Below, one piece after another: positions 9,380 to 50,122 of a stretch of 64,000 nucleotides of DNA. Numbering within the stretch: position 1 is the stretch's first letter; every line of letters starts with the position of its first letter. Both the position numbers and the translations under genes were made by a program. Below the pieces are notes generated by a model that worked only from the letters and a program-made list of their open reading frames with translations, did not search any database and was not told where the DNA came from. Source of the stretch: Micavibrio sp. UBA2400 (lineage in GTDB: Bacteria > Pseudomonadota > Alphaproteobacteria > UBA2400); contig DDSC01000031.1 of NCBI GenBank assembly GCA_002343265.1, positions 5,614-69,613 of the forward strand, given 5' to 3'.

Positions 9380-10330
9380 ATGCGCCTGTGTCTCGCTTTA
9401 TTGTGTTTCAGTCTTGCCGCTCCCGCCTTGGCGGCCGATCCCTATGCCGAAATGGAGGAGCTGACACAGGTAAAAGACCGTTACACCATCGGCCCGTGGC
9501 AGGGGGCGCTGGTCGGTGGCGCAAATTGCCAATTGGTGAATACCGAGACGCTGCAGGGGGTCGAGTTTTCGCTGAGTGCGGCCCGAAGCAACCCGTCCAC
9601 CACCATACAGTTGGGGGCTACTTTTCTCCACGATACGACCCTCAACAGCTTGCAGATCAAACTGGATGAGGCTGAGCCGGTGGCGCAGCCTTTCTCGGTG
9701 CATCATTCCGGTTTGTTTTACATGCCAAAGCCTGAGCAGCTTAAGGCGTTGGCCGCCGCGCGCTTTGTGACCTATGCCATCGGGCGGCTCGATAGAGCTA
9801 CCAAACAACTTACCAAAGTCGGGCAGGTGAGTTTTGATCTGCGCGGGTTTGACCGCGCCTATGAGCTGTTCTCAGCCTGTATCGACGGTCAGATGCCCGC
9901 CAATTTACCCAATGAGCCGCTGGAAGAAGGGGATCCGCGTACGGTCGCGGGCGCTCCCAATTGGGACGTGATTGATCTGACCTTTGATGGAAAACCCTAC
10001 TCGCGCTTGGCGAACCTTAAGGACACCGGTGACTTTGCGTTGGGGCTATGGGTGCATAACCGCGCGCAATATGTACTCAATTTGACCAGCTATAAGGATA
10101 TGCCCGAGCTCGATCGCATCAAGGCCGCGCAGTTGACGCTGGACGATAAAGACAAGATGGTGCTGCCGGTGGCAACCCAGCCGGATGGGCTACTCATTAC
10201 GCTGCCGCTGAGTGGCGTGCAGAAAATTGCCAAGGCGGGACAGCTTAAAATTGAGAGTGGTGCGATCAAAGCCGAGTTTACCATTACCAATTTTGCCGCG
10301 GTTGCACAGGCTATACAGCTCAAGGAATAG
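9380..10330 (+). CDS. Periplasmic protein, possible tandem IalB-like domains
   Basis: Signal peptide [35 protein letters not shown] .. [19 protein letters not shown] resembles the invasion-associated locus B family layout, and a second similar half follows. Motif memory only. Confidence 0.45.
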
Positions 10331-10347
10331 TTGCTAATTTCCGGGGC

Positions 10348-12485
<2,138 letters not shown>

Positions 12486-43004: not shown

Positions 43005-44102
43005 TCAATTGCTGCGAAGAAACCGGACAGCAGCGGGCCCTTGCCGGTTGGTCCAGCAACTCGCCTCAATCTGCCCTCCTGGCTGGCCTGTCTCTCGTGT
43101 GAGGGCGTAAATGCCGCTCAGGCGGGCATAGCCGGCAAAGGGGGAGCGAGCCACGTGGAACAGGAAACCACGCTCCGCTGCGCTGGTGGCGGTTGGTGTT
43201 CCCATCAGTGTCCCATGGCTGTTCAAGCGATCCAGTTGCTCGTTCACGGCCTTATCGCATAGGGCTATGGTCTCCTCGAGGGTTGGCGGCTTGTCAAAGA
43301 AAGACGTCGCGGCAGAGAGTGAGCCTTGGTCAAGCTCAGCAGACGTCACCCATGCCAGGAAATTTTTCGAATTCTCGTCAGTGTGCTGGCAGATCAGTTC
43401 ATAAACCAGCTGACCGTTGGCAATTTGCTTTTGAGGGGGAAGTTTTTTGGAGAATTGCTCCTCCTCGGCCAGCCGCCCGCCCAGAATGGCATGGCAGTCC
43501 GCCTCTCGGCGCAAGGTGAGCCGCGCTGCTTGCATGAGATTATCCTGATAATAAGACTGTTCGTGAGGCAATTTGAGGTTCTCGGTCGCAATGGGAAGTT
43601 TCTCGGCTATCCCGCGCGCTTCGAAGATGGCGTGGACCACGGCCTCGTTGGTGCCGCCCCAGATCATGCTGATGCCGACAAAGACCAGAATGAGAGAGCG
43701 CTTGAAGGTGGCCAGATGATCGCGCGGCTCAAGCTGTGGTAGTTGTGGTAGCTCGCGGTAGAGATCCAGTGCACTGCCAGCCGTACCTGGCTGATCGGTA
43801 GTCATCAAGGCACCAGATGTGCCGCCCCCAATCGCACCAAAGGTGCCCGGCGGTGGGAGGGCAGTGCCGGGTTGATAGGCGGGCGAGGATAATGCCGTGT
43901 CCATCAGTTTTTTCTGACGCGAGCGCCAGAGCAGTTCCTTGATGAATCCGCTGGGCACAAACAGCAAAAACCATAAGGCCAGAACGCCAAAGCCCATCAG
44001 TGCTGCAAGCTCAGGGCTGACAAAGGCGACCACAAGAAACCAGGTGAAGAGGAGGACGACGACGAGAATCAGAAGTCCGAGTCCTGAGGCAAAAGGTCCC
44101 AT
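43005..44102 (-). CDS. Hypothetical membrane protein
   Basis: 365 aa with an AAGGA SD. Two N-terminal TM helices and one internal hydrophobic segment. No recognised motif. Confidence 0.55.
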   Translation of the reverse strand: MGPFASGLGLLILVVVLLFTWFLVVAFVSPELAALMGFGVLALWFLLFVPSGFIKELLWRSRQKKLMDTALSSPAYQPGTALPPPGTFGAIGGGTSGALMTTDQPGTAGSALDLYRELPQLPQLEPRDHLATFKRSLILVFVGISMIWGGTNEAVVHAIFEARGIAEKLPIATENLKLPHEQSYYQDNLMQAARLTLRREADCHAILGGRLAEEEQFSKKLPPQKQIANGQLVYELICQHTDENSKNFLAWVTSAELDQGSLSAATSFFDKPPTLEETIALCDKAVNEQLDRLNSHGTLMGTPTATSAAERGFLFHVARSPFAGYARLSGIYALTRETGQPGGQIEASCWTNRQGPAAVRFLRSN

Positions 44103-44255
44103 CCGAAATCCTTACTCAAACGTTAAGCGCGAGGAAGCGCCGATAAACCAGTGAGTCACTCCTATCTCATTTTGGGGACTTGACGACAAGGTGTGTTGGA
44201 GTATCCCGTTATGGTGTCTCCAAGACGCGATGTGTTGTGTAAGTGGTTGCCAAGA

Positions 44256-44311
44256 CCACAATATGTGGTATCTTCTGGATAATATCCACGATATTCACAG
44301 GTTGTGGATAA
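44256..44311 (+). promoter_or_regulatory. Palindromes and DnaA-box-like elements upstream of nrdA
   Basis: CCACA-ata-TGTGG (44256-44268); TGGATA-a-TATCCA (44277-44289), with centres 21 nt apart; and TTGTGGATAA (44302-44311), which is the reverse complement of the TTATCCACA DnaA-box consensus. All lie 30-85 nt upstream of the nrdA ATG. Confidence 0.35.
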
Positions 44312-44340
44312 CGCGGAACGAGACAAGAACGGAGGGGGCT

Positions 44341-46179
44341 ATGGCGAGTGATGGCGGTATGCTGGACTTGGTACAAATTGAACGTGGGCCTAGTGTGCGG
44401 ATTGACCGCAGCCGGGACGCCAAGCTAACCCAGTTCGGCAAGGATACGCTGTCCGACCGCTATCTGATGCCTGGCGAGTCCTATCAGGATATGTTTGCCC
44501 GTGTGGCCATGGCCTATGCTGACGACACGGCCCATGCCCAGCGCCTTTATGACTATATTTCCAACCTGTGGTTCATGCCCTCCACCCCGGTACTGTCCAA
44601 CGGCGGTACGGACCGCGGTCTGCCTATTTCCTGCTTCCTGAATGAGGCAGGCGACAGTCTAGATGGCATCGTCGATCTCTGGACCGAGAATGTCTGGCTG
44701 GCTGCACGCGGTGGGGGGATCGGCTCTTACTGGGGCAACCTGCGTGCAATTGGCGAACGGATTGGCAAGGTTGGCAAGACCTCCGGCGTGATGCCCTTCA
44801 TCAAGGTAATGGACTCCCAGACCCTTGCCATCTCGCAAGGCTCACTGCGCCGTGGCTCGGCGGCTGTCTATCTGCAAGTCTCGCACCCCGAGATTGAAGA
44901 ATTTATCGAAATTCGCCGCCCTACCGGTGGCGATCCCAACCGTCGTGCACTGAACCTGCATCATGGTGTTGTTATCACCGACGACTTCATGAAGGCGGTG
45001 GAGAATGATGAAGAATGGGCGCTCAAGTCGCCCAAGGATGGCCGCGTGATGAGCCGTGTCTCGGCGCGTCATCTGTGGATACGCATGCTCACCGCCCGTG
45101 TTGAAACGGGTGAGCCGTACCTGCTGTTCATCGATCATGTGAATCGCGCCATTCCCGAGCATCACAAGCTGGCCGGCCTGAATGTGAAGATGAGCAACCT
45201 GTGCTCCGAGATCACTCTGCCCACAGGCCGTGATAAGGACGGCAAGAACCGTACAGCGGTGTGTTGCTTGTCCTCGCTCAATCTTGAGACCTATCTGGAG
45301 TGGGAAAATCATCCGACCTTTATTGAGGATTGCCTGCGCTTCCTTGATAACGTCCTCTCTGATTTCATCGCCAGCGCGCCGGACAGCATGAGCCGCGCCC
45401 GGTATGCCGCCATGCGCGAGCGCTCGGTTGGCCTTGGCGTGATGGGATTCCATAGCTTCCTGCAAGGTCAGCGTATTCCGTTTGAAAGCGTCATGGCCAA
45501 GGTCTGGAACAAGCGCATGTTCAAGCACATCAAACAGGAGGCCGATAAGGCATCGGTTGTACTGGCTGATGAGCGTGGCGCCTGTCCGGATGCGGCTGAG
45601 TATGGCATCCATGAGCGCTTCTCCAACAAGATCGCCATTGCGCCCACAGCCTCCATCTCCATCATTTGCGGTGGGGCCAGCCCCGGCATCGAGCCGGTGG
45701 CGGCCAATGTGTACACGCACAAGACACTGACCGGCAGCTATCCGGTTCGCAACCCTTATCTGGCCGACGTGCTCACCGAGCATGGCCAGAACACGGAAGA
45801 GGTATGGTCGAGCATCGCCGTCAATGGTGGCTCGGTGCAGCACCTCGATTTTCTCTCGCAGGATGAGAAGGACGTATTCAAGACCGCGATCGAGCTGGAT
45901 CAGCGCTGGGTGATCGAACATGCGGCGGACCGTACCCCGTTCATCTGCCAGAGCCAGTCGCTCAACATCTTCCTGCCGGCGAACATTCACAAGCGCGACC
46001 TGCACCAGATTCATTATCTGGCGTGGAAGAAGGGCGTTAAGTCGCTCTACTACTGTCGCTCCATGTCGCTGCAACGGGCCGAGAGTGCGGAAGGCGCTGC
46101 CAAGACACAGGCTGCTGCCAACGCCAATACGCCGAAAGATAATCCCAATAACGGCGAAGAGTGTTTGGCCTGTCAGTAG
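44341..46179 (+). CDS. nrdA: Ribonucleoside-diphosphate reductase alpha subunit (short form, no ATP-cone seen)
   Basis: ORF 44191..46179 trimmed to the ATG at 44341 (GGAGGGGG SD). Motifs LPISCFLN, NLCSEITLP, CCLSSLNL, and the C-terminal Cys pair ECLACQ. Confidence 0.95.
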   Translation: MASDGGMLDLVQIERGPSVRIDRSRDAKLTQFGKDTLSDRYLMPGESYQDMFARVAMAYADDTAHAQRLYDYISNLWFMPSTPVLSNGGTDRGLPISCFLNEAGDSLDGIVDLWTENVWLAARGGGIGSYWGNLRAIGERIGKVGKTSGVMPFIKVMDSQTLAISQGSLRRGSAAVYLQVSHPEIEEFIEIRRPTGGDPNRRALNLHHGVVITDDFMKAVENDEEWALKSPKDGRVMSRVSARHLWIRMLTARVETGEPYLLFIDHVNRAIPEHHKLAGLNVKMSNLCSEITLPTGRDKDGKNRTAVCCLSSLNLETYLEWENHPTFIEDCLRFLDNVLSDFIASAPDSMSRARYAAMRERSVGLGVMGFHSFLQGQRIPFESVMAKVWNKRMFKHIKQEADKASVVLADERGACPDAAEYGIHERFSNKIAIAPTASISIICGGASPGIEPVAANVYTHKTLTGSYPVRNPYLADVLTEHGQNTEEVWSSIAVNGGSVQHLDFLSQDEKDVFKTAIELDQRWVIEHAADRTPFICQSQSLNIFLPANIHKRDLHQIHYLAWKKGVKSLYYCRSMSLQRAESAEGAAKTQAAANANTPKDNPNNGEECLACQ

Positions 46180-46240
46180 GCTAACACCCTTCCCAGTCAG
46201 CTATCTGGGCAGACGAGGCGGTTATCACCAAGGAGGGACT

Positions 46241-46618
46241 ATGTCACACATCAAACGTATGACACCACTGCGCGTGGTCGATGATCTGGTCGATGAGGGC
46301 ATGTTCTATGAGGCGTTTGGAGCCACCCGTGTGCTGGCCGATGCGCCCGATTGCGTGGGGTATAAAGCCGCCAACGATACCGCCGTGATCCTCACCAGCC
46401 GTAAACTGGCCGACAAAAACTATGGCCCCTTTATCGCCGGGAAGCTGGCCCGCAGCGGAGCACTCTATTTTCATGTGGATAACATCGACGCCGAGCTTGC
46501 CGACCTGCCCGGCGCCGCGCACATTCTCACCCGCGCGGTGGTCGATGGCGTGGAAGAAGCCGTGATCGAAACCGAGACCGGCATGGTGGTGCTGGCAGCA
46601 ACAGCTCTTAGAAGTTGA
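46241..46618 (+). CDS. Small conserved-looking protein, possibly glyoxalase/VOC-like fold
   Basis: ORF 45920..46618 trimmed to the ATG at 46241 (AAGGAGGG SD). 125 aa with host-like G+C. The fold guess comes only from a beta-alpha-beta-like pattern (YFHVDNIDAE). Confidence 0.5.
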   Translation: MSHIKRMTPLRVVDDLVDEGMFYEAFGATRVLADAPDCVGYKAANDTAVILTSRKLADKNYGPFIAGKLARSGALYFHVDNIDAELADLPGAAHILTRAVVDGVEEAVIETETGMVVLAATALRS

Positions 46619-46632
46619 ATGGGAATAATTTA

Positions 46633-47220
46633 ATGGCTATCGACCTTTTACCGAAATTCATATTAGAATCCTACGAAGTACATGAATGGAAACACGCCTG
46701 TGCCATTCTTAAGCAGGATTTCCCCAAAGAATGGAATGATATCTGTTTTGTTCTAGAAGATTTTAGACTTTTACGCAGTTGGATAACAGTTGGTGGTGGG
46801 CGGAAATCTAAAGTTTCTGAAGCTATTGATTCTTCGCTATATAGACTTGGATGGAGCGAACGTCATTTCGAGACCGAAATTGTTATTGATAAAACTGCAA
46901 TGAAATCGCCCACCCACTCGGTTGATTGCTTTAGGAATGGCGTGGCTCTAGAAATTGAGTGGAATAATAAAGATCCTTTTTACGATCGTGACCTCAATAA
47001 TTTTCGACTTCTTTTTGATCTTAGGGCTGTGAGTGTCGGTGTGATAATCACTAGATCTGATGAATTGCAGAGTATTTTTGATGATTTAGGGCGTGGTCAA
47101 AGTTATGGAGCCTCTACGACTCATATGAAAAAACTACTTCCAAGAATTAGTGGGGGTGGTGGGGGCGGATGTCCTCTGCTAGTCTTTGGAATTACAAAAA
47201 AGCTATACATAGAAGACTAG
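46633..47220 (+). CDS. Type II restriction endonuclease, BglII/BamHI-fold candidate
   Basis: ORF 46615..47220; ATG at 46633. HSVDCFRNGVALEIEWNNKDPFYDRDLNNF..VSVGVIITR parallels BglII DIDFGKRDTLVEVQFSNYPF..VAIIITK (recalled sequence). Adjacent to a DNA methyltransferase. Confidence 0.55.
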   Translation: MAIDLLPKFILESYEVHEWKHACAILKQDFPKEWNDICFVLEDFRLLRSWITVGGGRKSKVSEAIDSSLYRLGWSERHFETEIVIDKTAMKSPTHSVDCFRNGVALEIEWNNKDPFYDRDLNNFRLLFDLRAVSVGVIITRSDELQSIFDDLGRGQSYGASTTHMKKLLPRISGGGGGGCPLLVFGITKKLYIED

Positions 47221-47234
47221 AAGGAGTGCTTTGA

Positions 47235-47894
47235 ATGATTCCCCATCTTTCTGCTGCGGAAGATCTTGCTCAGTCATTTGGACGTAAGAAATTCAAAACT
47301 ATTCTAGCCGATCCGCCGTGGCAATTCCAAAATAGGACAGGAAAGATTGCCCCAGAGCATAAGCGGCTTTCTAGATATCCGACTATGCATTTGTCTGACA
47401 TCTGCGATCTACCTGTGCCCAGTTTATTAGCAGATACTGCTCATTTATATCTTTGGGTTCCTAATGCATTGCTTCCCGAAGGACTTAAGGTTATGCAGTC
47501 GTGGGGGTTTAATTATAAAAGCAATATAGTCTGGCATAAAATTAGAAAAGATGGAGGGCCAGATGGACGTGGCGTTGGCTTTTATTTTCGAAACGTCACT
47601 GAACTTCTTCTGTTCGGAGTACGCGGAACTGGCGCTCGAACGCTCTCCCCCGGCAGAAGTCAGGTGAATTTTTTAGCAACGCAAAAGAGAGAGCATTCTA
47701 GGAAGCCAGACGAGATTTTTGATATAATACAATCATGTAGTCCTGGTCCATACTTGGAGCTTTTTGCTAGAGGTGTTCGCAAGGGGTGGGACGTATGGGG
47801 AAACCAAGCAACCGAAAGCTATTACCCTGATTGGGAGACTTATTCGAACCATTCAATGTCCGAACAACGTAATGGTGATAGAGTACGAGCGTGA
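47235..47894 (+). CDS. MT-A70-family N6-adenine DNA methyltransferase
   Basis: Catalytic ILADPPWQF (DPPW) motif, the downstream LYLWV block, and HSRKPDE near the C-terminus; 219 aa. Confidence 0.8.
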   Translation: MIPHLSAAEDLAQSFGRKKFKTILADPPWQFQNRTGKIAPEHKRLSRYPTMHLSDICDLPVPSLLADTAHLYLWVPNALLPEGLKVMQSWGFNYKSNIVWHKIRKDGGPDGRGVGFYFRNVTELLLFGVRGTGARTLSPGRSQVNFLATQKREHSRKPDEIFDIIQSCSPGPYLELFARGVRKGWDVWGNQATESYYPDWETYSNHSMSEQRNGDRVRA

Positions 47895-47925
47895 TACCAG
47901 TTTAGAAAATCATAGGAGTAGAGAA

Positions 47926-48975
47926 ATGCCCTGTCAATTGATGACCCCGAACCCTGTTTACAAGCCCTTCCGTTACCCGTGGGCGTATGACGCGTGGCTC
48001 ACGCAGCAGCGTCTGCACTGGCTGCCGGAAGAAGTGCCGATGGCTGATGATGTGAAGGACTGGCGCAACCGCCTGACTGCATCGGAAAAACATTTGCTCA
48101 CCCAGATTTTTCGTTTCTTCACGCAGGCGGATGTGGAAGTGGGCAACTGCTATAACAAGCATTACAGCCGCGTCTTCCAGCCAACCGAAGTGCAGATGAT
48201 GCTTACCGCCTTCTCGGCGATGGAGACCATCCATATCGCGGCCTACTCGCATCTGCTCGACACCATCGGTATGCCGGAGAGCGAATACTCGGCCTTCCTC
48301 AAATACAAGGAGATGAAGGACAAGTACGACTATATGCAGAACTTCAATGTGGACAACCCCACTGAAGTGGCGCGTACACTCGCGGTGTTCGGGGCGTTCA
48401 CGGAGGGGCTGCAGCTGTTCGCCAGTTTTGCCATCCTCATGAACTTCCCGCGCTTTGGCAAGATGAAGGGCATGGGCCAGATCGTTACCTGGTCGGTGCG
48501 TGATGAGACCTTGCACACGCTCTCCATCATCCGCCTGTTCAAGAGCTTCGTCGCCGAGAACCCCGAAGTCTGGACCGAACAGTTCAAACAGGAGTTGTAT
48601 GCGGCGTGCGATACCATCGTGCAGCACGAGGACGCCTTTATTGATCTCGCCTTTGAGCTGGGCGAGATCGATGGGCTGAACGCACAGCAGGTGAAGGATT
48701 ATATCCGCTGGATTGGTGATCGCCGTTTGCAGCAGCTAGGCCTTGAGCCGAAGTACAACATCCCCAAAAACCCGCTGCCGTGGATGGATGAAATCCTCAA
48801 CGGTGTCGAACACGCCAACTTCTTCGAAAACCGCTCGACCGAGTACAGTAAAGCTGCCACCGCCGGGACATGGGATGAAGCTTTTGAGGAGTTTGACACC
48901 AAGCGCGAAGCGGTGCGTACTGCTGCTTTCGCCGCCTTTACCGCCGATGATGGCACTCGCCCAGCCGGGTACTGA
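47926..48975 (+). CDS. nrdB: Ribonucleoside-diphosphate reductase beta subunit
   Basis: ORF 47764..48975 trimmed to the ATG at 47926 (TAGGAG SD). The alternative ATG is at 47941. Di-metal/radical-site helices FFTQADVEVGN, AMETIHIAAYSHLL, FTEGLQLFASF, VRDETLH. Confidence 0.95.
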   Translation: MPCQLMTPNPVYKPFRYPWAYDAWLTQQRLHWLPEEVPMADDVKDWRNRLTASEKHLLTQIFRFFTQADVEVGNCYNKHYSRVFQPTEVQMMLTAFSAMETIHIAAYSHLLDTIGMPESEYSAFLKYKEMKDKYDYMQNFNVDNPTEVARTLAVFGAFTEGLQLFASFAILMNFPRFGKMKGMGQIVTWSVRDETLHTLSIIRLFKSFVAENPEVWTEQFKQELYAACDTIVQHEDAFIDLAFELGEIDGLNAQQVKDYIRWIGDRRLQQLGLEPKYNIPKNPLPWMDEILNGVEHANFFENRSTEYSKAATAGTWDEAFEEFDTKREAVRTAAFAAFTADDGTRPAGY

Positions 48976-49032
48976 TTTTGCTAGACGAGCAAGCCGGGGG
49001 CGAGCGTTCCTCCCGGTGTTTAACGCCTTATG

Positions 49033-49302
49033 TCAGCGCAAGACCATCTTGCCCGTTTTGGGGTCGCGGCAACCTTCTTGGGTACGGAGGGCATCGAGCT
49101 TTGGCAGTGCTCTTGCGGCTAACTCGCCTTCCAGCGCCATCCAGTAGTCACGCCCAAGCCGCACGAAACGTCCCGGCCTTGCCAAGGCATACTGCGCGGC
49201 GGCCGTAAGTGCTTCATGCGCTGCGGCTTGGCGCTGGGCTAGTGTGAGTGCGTAAAATTGCGCCTTGGGTCTTGCCATGAAAACCATCACTTTCGAGGCC
49301 AT
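49033..49302 (-). CDS. Hypothetical small protein downstream of fliP
   Basis: ORF 49033..49368. Candidate starts at 49302, 49287 and 49278, none with a good SD. No recognised motif. Confidence 0.3.
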   Translation of the reverse strand: MASKVMVFMARPKAQFYALTLAQRQAAAHEALTAAAQYALARPGRFVRLGRDYWMALEGELAARALPKLDALRTQEGCRDPKTGKMVLR

Positions 49303-49345
49303 GGTAGAACCAGAAAAAACGCCTGACAAGCACGAAGAAGTTAAT

Positions 49346-50122
49346 TTACGGCCCGCCAGAGACACCATAACTGGCGACTAGCGAACCAGCCAGCATGTGC
49401 CAGCCATCGATCAGGACAAAAAACACGATTTTGAAGGGCAGGGAGATCACCACTGGCGGCAGCATCATCATACCCATGGCCATCAGGATGGACGCCACCA
49501 CCATATCGATCACCAGAAACGGCAGGAAGAGCAGAAAGCCGATTTCAAAAGCGCGGCGTAATTCCGAGATCATGAAGGAGGGGATTAGCGCTACCAGCGG
49601 GGTTTCTTCGGCTTTCATATTTTCGGTCTTGTACTTGCCCATGTCGAGAAAAAGCTGCAGGTCTTTCTCACGGGTATGCTGCAGCATAAAGGTCCGGAAT
49701 GGAGCGACGCTTTTATCAAACGCGTCTTTTGCCTCAAGATCGTTGTTCATGTAGGGCTGTACGCCATCCGTCCACGCCTGTTGCAGCGTTGGGGCCATGA
49801 TGAAAAAGGTCAGGAACAGCGCCAGCGAGATCAGGACCTGATTGGGTGGAGTCTGCTGCACGCCAAGGGCCGAGCGCAGGAAAGATAACACCACAACAAT
49901 ACGGGTAAAGCTGGTCACCATCACCAGAATGCCCGGCGCCAGCGAGAGCAGGGTGATAAGTGCTACCAGCTGCACAATACGGGCCGAACTGCTGGCCCCA
50001 TCGCCCATGTCGAGGGAGAGCTGCTGCGCGAGGGCGGGCAGGGCTACGAGACAGAGCAGGGCAAGCCCCAAGAGCTTACCCAGCGTCGGCAGGTGGGCGC
50101 GCAGGTTTTTCACAAAGGTCAT
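49346..50122 (-). CDS. fliP: Flagellar export apparatus protein FliP
   Basis: 258 aa with a signal-like N-terminus. Conserved stretches TSFTRIVVVLSFLR, GVQQTPPNQVL, FLTFFIMAP and FLLFLPFLVIDMVVASILMAMGMMMLPP. Confidence 0.95.
   Translation of the reverse strand: MTFVKNLRAHLPTLGKLLGLALLCLVALPALAQQLSLDMGDGASSSARIVQLVALITLLSLAPGILVMVTSFTRIVVVLSFLRSALGVQQTPPNQVLISLALFLTFFIMAPTLQQAWTDGVQPYMNNDLEAKDAFDKSVAPFRTFMLQHTREKDLQLFLDMGKYKTENMKAEETPLVALIPSFMISELRRAFEIGFLLFLPFLVIDMVVASILMAMGMMMLPPVVISLPFKIVFFVLIDGWHMLAGSLVASYGVSGGP

What the first reader, a model, noticed from the sequence alone, without database searches (positions are those of the whole stretch)
46619..47925. AT-rich type II restriction-modification cassette wedged inside the nrdA-nrdB operon
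Base composition drops abruptly. Hand counts give 33% and 43% G+C for the 60-nt lines starting at 46621 and 46681, against 72% for the line starting at 46501. The two ORFs are a BglII/BamHI-fold endonuclease candidate (SVDCF..VALEIEWNNK..VGVIITR, laid out like BglII D..EVQ..IIITK) and an MT-A70-family methyltransferase (DPPW). The cassette starts at the stop codon of the upstream 125-aa ORF and ends 31 nt before the nrdB ATG. The nrdB Shine-Dalgarno (taggag) sits in the AT-rich DNA, so nrdB expression probably depends on transcription through the cassette. No integrase, transposase or terminal repeats are visible. An addictive R-M pair locked inside an essential dNTP-synthesis operon is an unusual stabilisation context. 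As far as I recall, BglII and BamHI pair with N4-cytosine methyltransferases rather than MT-A70 enzymes, so the pairing itself may be atypical.
Basis: partly seen in the sequence, partly recalled or inferred. Interest (0 to 1): 0.65.

Follow-up and report, generated by a model that had tools for sequence, protein, structure and literature searches.

The report
Common restriction-modification cassette in nrd hotspot
An intact but very common two-gene restriction-modification module (BstYI/BglII-like cutter plus MT-A70 adenine methylase) sits in a strain-variable slot just upstream of nrdB in a Micavibrio-like bacterium. The placement is neat, but the system is ordinary and the operon is not the cell's only route to dNTPs.

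Summary
Window 46619-47925 is the lowest-GC 1.3 kb of the window (42% against 57%, z = -5.5). It encodes a full-length Endonuc-BglII protein (E 1e-42; predicted fold closest to BstYI) and a full-length MT-A70 methyltransferase (E 2e-30) between a small conserved ORF and nrdB.

Most of the interpretation does not hold.
- **Pairing:** R plus MT-A70 is the norm for this family. It recurred in all six other genomic contexts I examined and is stated in the literature (PMC4738411).
- **Essentiality:** the genome also encodes a class II B12-dependent NrdJ, and two of three family relatives lack class I RNR.
- **Shine-Dalgarno:** the nrdB SD is native DNA shared with R-M-free relatives.

The slot after the small ORF is a strain-variable hotspot. 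Relatives carry a GIY-YIG gene, GIY-YIG plus R-M, a helicase-like gene, or unrelated ORFs there. The three nrd-linked endonucleases form one clade (100/98) with saturated synonymous divergence, so the cassette is probably an old resident that is sometimes lost.

In this genome the cassette has no leader of its own, so it is probably co-transcribed with nrdA, the small ORF and nrdB. Verdict: new member of a known kind, modest interest.

The parts
44256..44268 (+). Perfect palindrome CCACAATATGTGG in the nrdA leader. It is NrdR-box-like by my recollection of the consensus and is a candidate operator for the operon promoter.
   Evidence: It is the only zero-mismatch match in the window and is visible in the sequence. 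Nothing comparable precedes nrdB. The function is not tested.
44341..46179 (+). nrdA, class I ribonucleotide reductase alpha subunit. The ATG at 44341 is the likely start; the open frame begins at 44191.
   Evidence: NF006577 at 1013.8 bits (cut-off 620) and Pfam Ribonuc_red_lgN and lgC. It is 88-91% identical to relatives.
46241..46618 (+). ORF125, a small conserved protein between nrdA and the variable slot, with a glyoxalase/bleomycin-resistance (VOC)-like fold.
   Evidence: No Pfam or NCBIfam hit. It is conserved at 60-72% identity in four related lineages. The AF2 model has pLDDT 83.7, and its best Foldseek hits are MRD 1kmz (TM 0.67) and glyoxalases.
46619..46632 (+). Left junction: only 14 nt between the ORF125 stop and the R start codon, with no cassette leader and only a weak GGGA Shine-Dalgarno-like motif.
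   Evidence: Sequence. The homologous cassettes in L006 and L019 carry AT-rich leaders of 92 nt and about 150 nt with GGAG before R.
46633..47220 (+). R: BglII/BstYI-family type II restriction endonuclease, 195 aa, with catalytic D98-x8-E107-x-E109.
   Evidence: PF09195 E 1.2e-42 over 1-163/163. At least 8000 homologous clusters exist, some named 'BglII/BstYI family type II restriction endonuclease'. D98, E107, E109 and K113 are invariant in 30 homologues. The AF2 model has pLDDT 82.6, and Foldseek gives BstYI 1sdo (TM 0.71, E 3e-8) then BamHI.
47221..47234 (+). R-M spacer carrying a strong Shine-Dalgarno (GAAGGAG) for M.
   Evidence: Sequence.
47235..47894 (+). M: MT-A70-family (beta-class, DPPW) DNA methyltransferase, 219 aa. 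By family it is presumed to be an N6-adenine enzyme.
   Evidence: PF05063 E 1.8e-30 over 1-172/172. PADLOC MTase_II E 2e-90. The best PDB relatives are ciliate MTA1-type MT-A70 proteins and METTL3. DPPW and all 100+ invariant residues are retained in an alignment with six partners of homologous R genes. It is the only MT-A70 gene in the genome.
47895..47912 (+). Right junction: the tail of the inserted DNA, with no similarity to relatives.
   Evidence: Comparison of the 70 nt before nrdB in seven loci.
47913..47925 (+). Native nrdB ribosome-binding site (GGAGTAGAGAA), shared with R-M-free relatives.
   Evidence: The window has GGAGTAGAgAA-ATG; L023 and L020 have GGAGTAGAAA-ATG.
47926..48975 (+). 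nrdB, class I ribonucleotide reductase beta subunit.
   Evidence: NF007186 at 570 bits (cut-off 237) and Pfam Ribonuc_red_sm. It is 87-92% identical to relatives.

Best explanation
This is an intact type II restriction-modification module of a very widespread family: a BstYI/BglII-fold endonuclease followed by its usual MT-A70 (DPPW) methyltransferase.

The host is a Micavibrio-like alphaproteobacterium. The module lies in a strain-variable hotspot between a small VOC-fold gene (ORF125) and nrdB of the class I ribonucleotide reductase cluster.

The nrd-linked copies in three host lineages descend from one acquisition. They have diverged about as deeply as the host genes, under purifying selection, and they have stayed AT-rich. 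Some strains have lost or replaced the cassette.

In this genome the cassette has lost the leader seen in its relatives and abuts ORF125. It is therefore most likely transcribed from the nrdA promoter as part of one nrdA-ORF125-R-M-nrdB transcript. R has a weak ribosome-binding site and M a strong one, which would favour methylation over cleavage.

The presumed function is ordinary. M methylates a short palindromic site, possibly with a GATC core such as AGATCT or RGATCY. R cuts unmethylated incoming DNA.

Shown here: gene identities, fold, the conserved pairing, slot polymorphism, the clade, the junctions and the presence of NrdJ. Inferred: co-transcription, expression balance, enzymatic activity and specificity.
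For: Identity:
- Pfam and PADLOC hits for R and M.
- BstYI is the best structural match for R.
- The catalytic D-x8-E-x-E and DPPW motifs are invariant.

Commonness and pairing:
- At least 8000 clusters at 74-83% identity.
- R next to MT-A70 in all six other contexts examined.
- Also present on plasmids and phages.
- Literature statement in PMC4738411.

Hotspot. The same slot holds different contents in relatives:
- GIY-YIG (G001, L023, L020, L024).
- GIY-YIG plus R-M (L019, L028).
- An SF1-helicase-like gene (L026).
- Unrelated ORFs (L021, L027).

Single origin: the three nrd-linked R proteins form a clade with support 100/98 among 121 homologues.

Age and selection:
- dS between the copies is saturated and dN is 0.10-0.16, while host nrdA and nrdB have dS about 0.9-1.1.
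- GC3 is 0.32-0.39 in all three copies.

Embedding:
- The junctions are 14 nt and 31 nt, the leader is missing and the nrdB RBS is native.
- No plus-strand terminator or strong promoter is predicted inside the cassette.

Specificity hint: AGATCT has O/E 0.47, rank 7 of 64 hexamer palindromes.
Against:
- Persistent AT-richness after saturated synonymous divergence is not what simple amelioration predicts.
- The topology inside the R clade, (window,(L006,L019)) at 98/81, disagrees with the host genes, which place the window closest to the L019/L020 lineage. Some lateral movement or replacement within the family is therefore likely.
- AGATCT depletion is not distinctive. TGATCA and several GC-rich palindromes are depleted as much or more.
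- The consensus promoter scan is weak evidence, in an alphaproteobacterium especially.
Confidence: 0.75

Rival explanations
1. Recurrent independent capture. Related AT-rich members of one R-M sub-lineage entered the same hotspot separately in the three host lineages, or repeatedly replaced one another, rather than descending vertically from one insertion.
For: - All three copies keep GC3 of 0.32-0.39 although their synonymous sites are saturated.
- The junctions and leaders differ: 14 nt, 92 nt and about 150 nt.
- The topology inside the R clade disagrees with the host genes at 98/81.
- The slot demonstrably turns over between strains.
Against: - The three copies form an exclusive clade (100/98) among 121 homologues from many phyla.
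- Sliding-window identity of the flanks shows no local discordance next to the cassette.
- The window's R is somewhat more similar to L019's R (84%) than to L006's (82%), as the host genes are.
Confidence: 0.2
2. One reading: an addictive R-M pair that stabilises itself by sitting inside an essential dNTP-synthesis operon which needs read-through for nrdB, with an unusual R/M pairing.
For: - The junctions are tight and no terminator or strong internal promoter is predicted.
- R-M systems are known to insert into operon-like clusters and to cause post-segregational killing (PMC2993543).
Against: - A complete class II NrdJ is present, and class I RNR is absent from two of the three family relatives.
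- R-M-free and R-M-bearing alleles coexist in close relatives.
- The nrdB RBS is native.
- The pairing is the family norm.
Confidence: 0.1
3. A domesticated or partly silenced module. R is barely expressed because it has a weak RBS and no leader, and M serves mainly as an epigenetic methyltransferase whose expression is coupled to nrd (replication) control.
For: - R has a weak SD and no leader, while M has a strong SD.
- An NrdR-box-like palindrome occurs only upstream of nrdA.
- Earlier scan notes report methyltransferases in the nrdA-nrdB gap elsewhere. These are unverified leads.
Against: - R is intact with all family-invariant residues and has low dN relative to saturated dS.
- Both genes are retained together in all three nrd-linked lineages.
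Confidence: 0.07

Closest known systems
BstYI (RGATCY) and BglII (AGATCT) type II restriction endonucleases; Pfam PF09195; PDB 1sdo, 1vrr, 2p0j
   Same: Full-length PF09195 match. BstYI is the best structural match, with TM 0.71. The catalytic spacing is D-x8-E-x-E/Q. The size is about 195-200 aa.
   Different: Only 16-19% identical to BstYI in the structural alignment. Sequence and profile searches of PDB find nothing. The recognition sequence is unknown. By my recollection, BglII's own partner is an N4-cytosine methyltransferase, whereas this subfamily pairs with MT-A70.
Prokaryotic MT-A70 (Ime4-like, circularly permuted beta-class) methyltransferases of 'BglII R-M systems' (Iyer, Zhang and Aravind 2016, PMC4738411)
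   Same: Full-length PF05063 match, an N-terminal DPPW motif, and a position immediately downstream of a BglII-family R. The pairing is described in that paper.
   Different: No biochemical data exist for this member. The target base and site are inferred from the family only.
R-M systems inserted into operon-like gene clusters without mobility genes (Kobayashi group; Ishikawa et al. 2010, PMC2993543)
   Same: A bare two-gene R-M unit with no integrase, transposase or repeats, inserted between genes of an operon-like cluster.
   Different: Here the target is the class I RNR cluster, the site is shared by three host lineages, and in this genome the cassette has lost its own leader.
The nrdA-nrdB gap of T-even phages as an endonuclease hotspot (mobE, I-TevIII; Wilson and Edgell 2009, PMC2790892; Crona et al. 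2011, PMC3045599)
   Same: Selfish nuclease genes occupy the gap between RNR subunit genes. Relatives of this genome carry a GIY-YIG gene in the same slot.
   Different: This is a cellular genome, not a phage. The occupant is an R-M pair rather than a homing endonuclease. The slot lies after an extra small gene (ORF125). Homing was not tested.
Strain-variable defence hotspots between conserved core genes
   Same: Conserved flanks with alternative cargo in close relatives: R-M, a helicase-like gene with weak defence-model hits, GIY-YIG, or unknown ORFs.
   Different: The hotspot lies inside a metabolic gene cluster. Only the R-M cargo is a recognised defence system, and the helicase matches to defence models are weak.

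Membership tests
BglII/BstYI-family type II restriction endonuclease (PF09195) | Profile match above the curated threshold over the whole domain | tested here: met
   145.9 bits against a cut-off of 26, profile positions 1-163 of 163.
BglII/BstYI-family type II restriction endonuclease (PF09195) | BstYI/BglII/BamHI-like PD-(D/E)XK fold | tested here: met
   The AF2 model has pLDDT 82.6. The top Foldseek hits are BstYI 1sdo, 2p0j and 1vrr (TM 0.64-0.71, E 5e-9 to 3e-8), then BamHI 1bhm.
BglII/BstYI-family type II restriction endonuclease (PF09195) | Catalytic acidic triad with D-x8-E-x-(E/Q) spacing | tested here: met
   D98, E107 and E109 are present and invariant in 30 homologues. The equivalence to BglII D84/E93/Q95 is from memory and was not aligned here.
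BglII/BstYI-family type II restriction endonuclease (PF09195) | Sequence-specific cleavage of a GATC-core palindrome | not testable with these tools
   The only evidence is indirect: AGATCT has O/E 0.47 in the genome, rank 7 of 64 palindromes, which is not distinctive.
MT-A70 / beta-class DNA N6-adenine methyltransferase (PF05063) | Profile match above the curated threshold over the whole domain | tested here: met
   106.6 bits against a cut-off of 23.9, profile positions 1-172 of 172. PADLOC MTase_II E 2e-90.
MT-A70 / beta-class DNA N6-adenine methyltransferase (PF05063) | Catalytic DPPW motif near the N-terminus (permuted order) | tested here: met
   D26-P27-P28-W29 is invariant across seven partners of homologous R genes.
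MT-A70 / beta-class DNA N6-adenine methyltransferase (PF05063) | m6A formation on DNA at the site cut by R | not testable with these tools
Type II R-M system (gene pair) | R and M adjacent on the same strand, with the pairing conserved across unrelated genomic contexts | tested here: met
   The R-then-M order, with overlaps or gaps of up to about 100 nt, recurs in the nrd-linked relatives (L006/L007) and in Limnohabitans, a Bdellovibrionales MAG, a plasmid-like contig and a further MAG.
Variable hotspot between conserved flanks | Alternative cargo at one site between the same conserved genes in close relatives | tested here: met
   At least five slot states follow the ORF125 homologue. Four of them follow an identical ORF125 protein. 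L019 and L023 are collinear at 94% identity up to a sharp breakpoint.
   A complete class II NrdJ lies on contig C40 (NF005736, 2184 bits against a cut-off of 1737). G002 and G003 carry NrdJ only.
Free-standing homing endonuclease in the nrd gap (mobE-like) | An HNH or GIY-YIG homing nuclease that cuts the empty allele | tested here: not met
   The occupant in the window is a PD-(D/E)XK R-M pair. The genome has no homologue of the relatives' GIY-YIG gene. Relatives carry a GIY-YIG gene in the slot, but homing was not tested.

The most novel reading that the evidence does not exclude
The cassette may have become a true member of the class I RNR operon. Having lost its own promoter and leader, R-M expression would be slaved to the nrd promoter (NrdR- or DnaA-box-like operators), so methylation and restriction capacity would rise and fall with dNTP supply and replication. 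More broadly, the gap before nrdB would be a site that cells and phages alike keep filling with DNA-modification and nuclease genes.
Probability: 0.15. Interest if true: 0.55.

Novelty: new member of a known kind. Interest (0 to 1): 0.3.

Why it matters
The R-M system itself adds little. It belongs to one of the most widespread two-gene R-M families, and its R/M pairing is already described.

The locus is a clean natural example of three things:
- A strain-variable hotspot lying inside a metabolic gene cluster. It echoes the well-known nrdA-nrdB endonuclease hotspot of T-even phages, but in a cellular, predatory-bacterium-like lineage.
- An R-M cassette with no mobility genes that has stayed at one site through deep host divergence while remaining strongly AT-rich. 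This bears on how far 'amelioration' applies to accessory genes.
- A cassette that appears to have given up its own expression signals to the host operon.

If the last point were confirmed, it would be a tidy case of defence-gene expression tied to replication metabolism.

Tried and rejected
- **PDB sequence searches for R.** Sequence (phmmer) and 30-sequence profile searches of PDB found no BglII or BstYI match. Only the fold comparison found them.
- **NCBIfam.** It has no model for R, M or ORF125.
- **Recognition site from palindrome avoidance.** AGATCT is depleted (O/E 0.47), but so are TGATCA (0.41), CCCGGG (0.25), GAGCTC (0.32) and others. This is not decisive.
- **Rfam.** A scan of 43500-49500 at E <= 0.1 found nothing.
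- **NrdR-box search.** Only the nrdA leader has a clean palindrome. My 16-mer did not recover boxes in relatives, so the operator assignment stays tentative.
- **Flank-mediated transfer.** Sliding-window identity of nrdA, ORF125 and nrdB shows no local switch of nearest relative next to the cassette.
- **Terminal repeats.** Only chance-size matches.
- **Assembly chimera.** Rejected, because independent contigs from other samples share the arrangement.
- **Right junction of the occupied allele in the polymorphic lineage.** Contigs L019 and L028 end inside or just after R-M, so the junction was not recovered.
Full report
**1. The observation**

The composition drop is real and sharp.
- Window 46619-47925 is 42.1% G+C, against 58.4% and 57.1% on its two sides.
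- It is the lowest 1.3-kb stretch in the window (z = -5.5) and lies in the lowest 0.55% of such stretches in the 1.98-Mb genome.
- A two-state likelihood fit places the boundaries at 46608 and 47942.
- Third-position G+C is 0.32 in R and 0.36 in M, against 0.67-0.75 in the flanking genes.

- ORF1 (46633-47220) matches Pfam Endonuc-BglII over the whole profile (E 1.2e-42).
- ORF2 (47235-47894) matches MT-A70 over the whole profile (E 1.8e-30) and a PADLOC type II methyltransferase model (E 2e-90).
- The flanks are a class I RNR alpha subunit, a 125-aa ORF with no family hit, and a class I RNR beta subunit.
- No mobility gene and no terminal repeats are present.

**2. What the two proteins are**

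The endonuclease has at least 8000 homologous clusters in the big protein collection. The best 120 are 74-83% identical to it. Those that carry a name are called 'BglII/BstYI family type II restriction endonuclease', and they come from Betaproteobacteria, Bdellovibrionales and other groups.

Sequence and profile searches against PDB find nothing. An AlphaFold model (pLDDT 82.6) matches BstYI best (1sdo, TM 0.71, E 3e-8), followed by BamHI. D98, E107 and E109 (spacing D-x8-E-x-E) and K113 are invariant in 30 homologues.

The methyltransferase keeps DPPW and every other invariant residue of its family. Its nearest solved relatives are ciliate MTA1-type MT-A70 proteins and METTL3. It is the only MT-A70 gene in the genome, and R is the only copy of its kind.

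**3. The pairing is normal**

In every other genomic context I examined, the R homologue is followed directly by an MT-A70 gene:
- L006/L007, nrd-linked metagenome contigs.
- L008-L010, a Limnohabitans genome and two matching metagenome contigs.
- L011 and L012, a Bdellovibrionales MAG and one further contig.
- L013-L015, a plasmid-like contig with a resolvase, a T4SS coupling protein and MobC.
- L016/L017, another MAG.

[quoted passage not shown] Homologues also occur on plasmids and phages under routine annotation. Earlier notes of this scan record the same cassette in about 21 other genomes. I treat those notes as leads only, but they agree with my own census.

**4. The host and the operon**

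The window lies on contig C19 of a 1.98-Mb MAG that is 94% complete. Its closest held relative, G001, is recorded as 'MAG: Micavibrio sp.'.

The class I RNR cluster is not the cell's only RNR. Contig C40 encodes a complete class II B12-dependent NrdJ (NF005736, 2184 bits against a cut-off of 1737). All four genomes of the family have NrdJ, and two of them (G002, G003) have no class I enzyme. The premise of an 'essential operon' is therefore weak.

**5. The slot is a hotspot**

I used ORF125 as an anchor and collected the region from relatives. The states found were:

| Locus or lineage | Content after ORF125 |
|---|---|
| Window | R-M, then nrdB |
| L006/L007 (NrdA 88% identical) | 92-nt leader, R-M, then nrdB |
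| G001 and L024 | a GIY-YIG gene (frameshifted in G001) between REP-like palindromes, then nrdB |
| L023 | GIY-YIG, a 117-nt REP-like spacer, then nrdB |
| L020 | an extra lysine-rich ORF, GIY-YIG, then nrdB |
| L019/L028 | GIY-YIG, a leader of about 150 nt, then R-M |
| L026 | a break inside the REP-like palindrome into AT-rich DNA carrying an SF1-helicase-like gene of more than 586 aa, with weak matches to defence helicases |
| L021/L027/L033 | two unknown ORFs and a two-component system, with no nrdB within 5 kb |

The last five rows belong to a fourth lineage whose ORF125 proteins are identical or nearly identical to one another and 72% identical to the window's.

L019 and L023 are collinear at 94% identity up to a sharp breakpoint. 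So R-M-bearing and R-M-free alleles coexist among close relatives.

This recalls the nrdA-nrdB gap of T-even phages, a documented hotspot for mobE and other endonucleases (PMC2790892; PMC3045599). It also matches the known ability of R-M units to insert into operon-like clusters (PMC2993543).

**6. History of the cassette**

In a maximum-likelihood tree of 121 R proteins, the three nrd-linked copies form a clade with support 100/98. Between them, synonymous divergence is saturated and dN is 0.10-0.16. The host nrdA and nrdB genes show dS of about 0.9-1.1 and dN of 0.06-0.11.

The copies are therefore old, under purifying selection, and not recent transfers of one another. All three keep GC3 of 0.32-0.39.

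Two observations do not fit pure vertical descent.
- AT-richness persists despite the depth of divergence.
- The internal topology, (window,(L006,L019)) at 98/81, conflicts with the host genes, which put the window nearest the L019/L020 lineage.

The flanks show no local discordance. I conclude that one acquisition, followed by long residence with occasional loss or replacement, is the best reading. Recurrent capture from a related AT-rich pool remains a live rival.

**7. Junctions and expression**

On the right side, the 12-13 nt before the nrdB ATG (GGAGTAGAgAA) match the R-M-free relatives L023 and L020 (GGAGTAGAAA). The nrdB ribosome-binding site is therefore native, and the insert ends between 47895 and about 47912.

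On the left side, only 14 nt separate the ORF125 stop from the R ATG. The AT-rich leaders present in L006 (92 nt) and L019 (about 150 nt), each with GGAG before R, are missing.

R has only a weak GGGA motif upstream, whereas M has GAAGGAG. No plus-strand terminator or strong promoter is predicted within the cassette. The only clean operator-like palindrome lies upstream of nrdA.

**8. Specificity**

Specificity is unknown. AGATCT is depleted about two-fold in the genome (O/E 0.47), but it ranks only 7th of 64 hexamer palindromes, and TGATCA and several GC-rich palindromes are depleted as much or more. A GATC-core hexamer is a reasonable guess from the fold family and no more than that.

**9. 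Verdict**

This is a new member of a known and very common R-M family in a noteworthy but explicable place. Interest is modest (0.3). It rests on the hotspot inside the RNR cluster, the long-lived AT-rich resident, and the apparent surrender of the cassette's own expression signals to the host operon.

Noticed in passing
window 46241-46618: ORF125, conserved between nrdA and the variable slot in four related lineages, has no Pfam or NCBIfam family. Its predicted fold is glyoxalase/bleomycin-resistance (VOC)-like, with best hit MRD 1kmz at TM 0.67. Its role next to a class I RNR is unknown.
   Followed up: partly
L023:1198-1524; L005:3884-4120; L020:4851-5177; L019:701-985: A small GIY-YIG gene (PF01541, E 6e-18) lies in the same slot in relatives. 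It is flanked by REP-like palindromes (GGATCCCCGCTTTCGCGGGGATGAC and variants) and looks frameshifted in G001. The window's genome has neither the gene nor the repeat.
   Followed up: partly
L026:5426-7450: In one strain the slot breaks inside the REP-like palindrome into AT-rich DNA that encodes an SF1-helicase-like protein of more than 586 aa (AAA_11, AAA_30). It has weak matches to defence-system helicases (MkoA, PDC-S37).
   Followed up: partly
L027:693-4631; L021/L029; L033: In some strains nrdA-ORF125 is followed by two unknown ORFs (178 and 301 aa) and a convergent two-component system, with no nrdB within 5 kb. The class I RNR may be broken up or relocated there.
   Followed up: no
G000 contig C38, about 10200-12300 (outside the window): A stretch of about 2 kb has only 20-29% G+C in a 57.5% G+C genome. 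This is far lower than the R-M cassette.
   Followed up: no
window 44256-44311: The perfect palindrome CCACAATATGTGG is followed about 30 nt later by TCCACGATATTCACAGGTTGTGGATAA in the nrdA leader. Both look like operator sites (NrdR-box-like or DnaA-box-like). An earlier first-reader note flags the same elements.
   Followed up: partly
whole genome G000: Several hexamer palindromes are more depleted than AGATCT: CCCGGG (O/E 0.25), GAGCTC (0.32), GCCGGC (0.37) and TGATCA (0.41). This hints at past or present pressure from other R-M systems.
   Followed up: no
L016:4144-4731; L007:2967-3554: ORFs of exactly 195 aa with no Pfam hit lie just upstream of R in L016/L017 and just downstream of nrdB in L007. 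I did not compare them with each other or with R.
   Followed up: no
phage records LC545443.1 and LC545444.1 (hits H13, H14): Nitratiruptor phages NrS-2 and NrS-3 encode a 70%-identical homologue of R under a feature annotated 'methyltransferase'. This may be a fused or mis-annotated gene.
   Followed up: no
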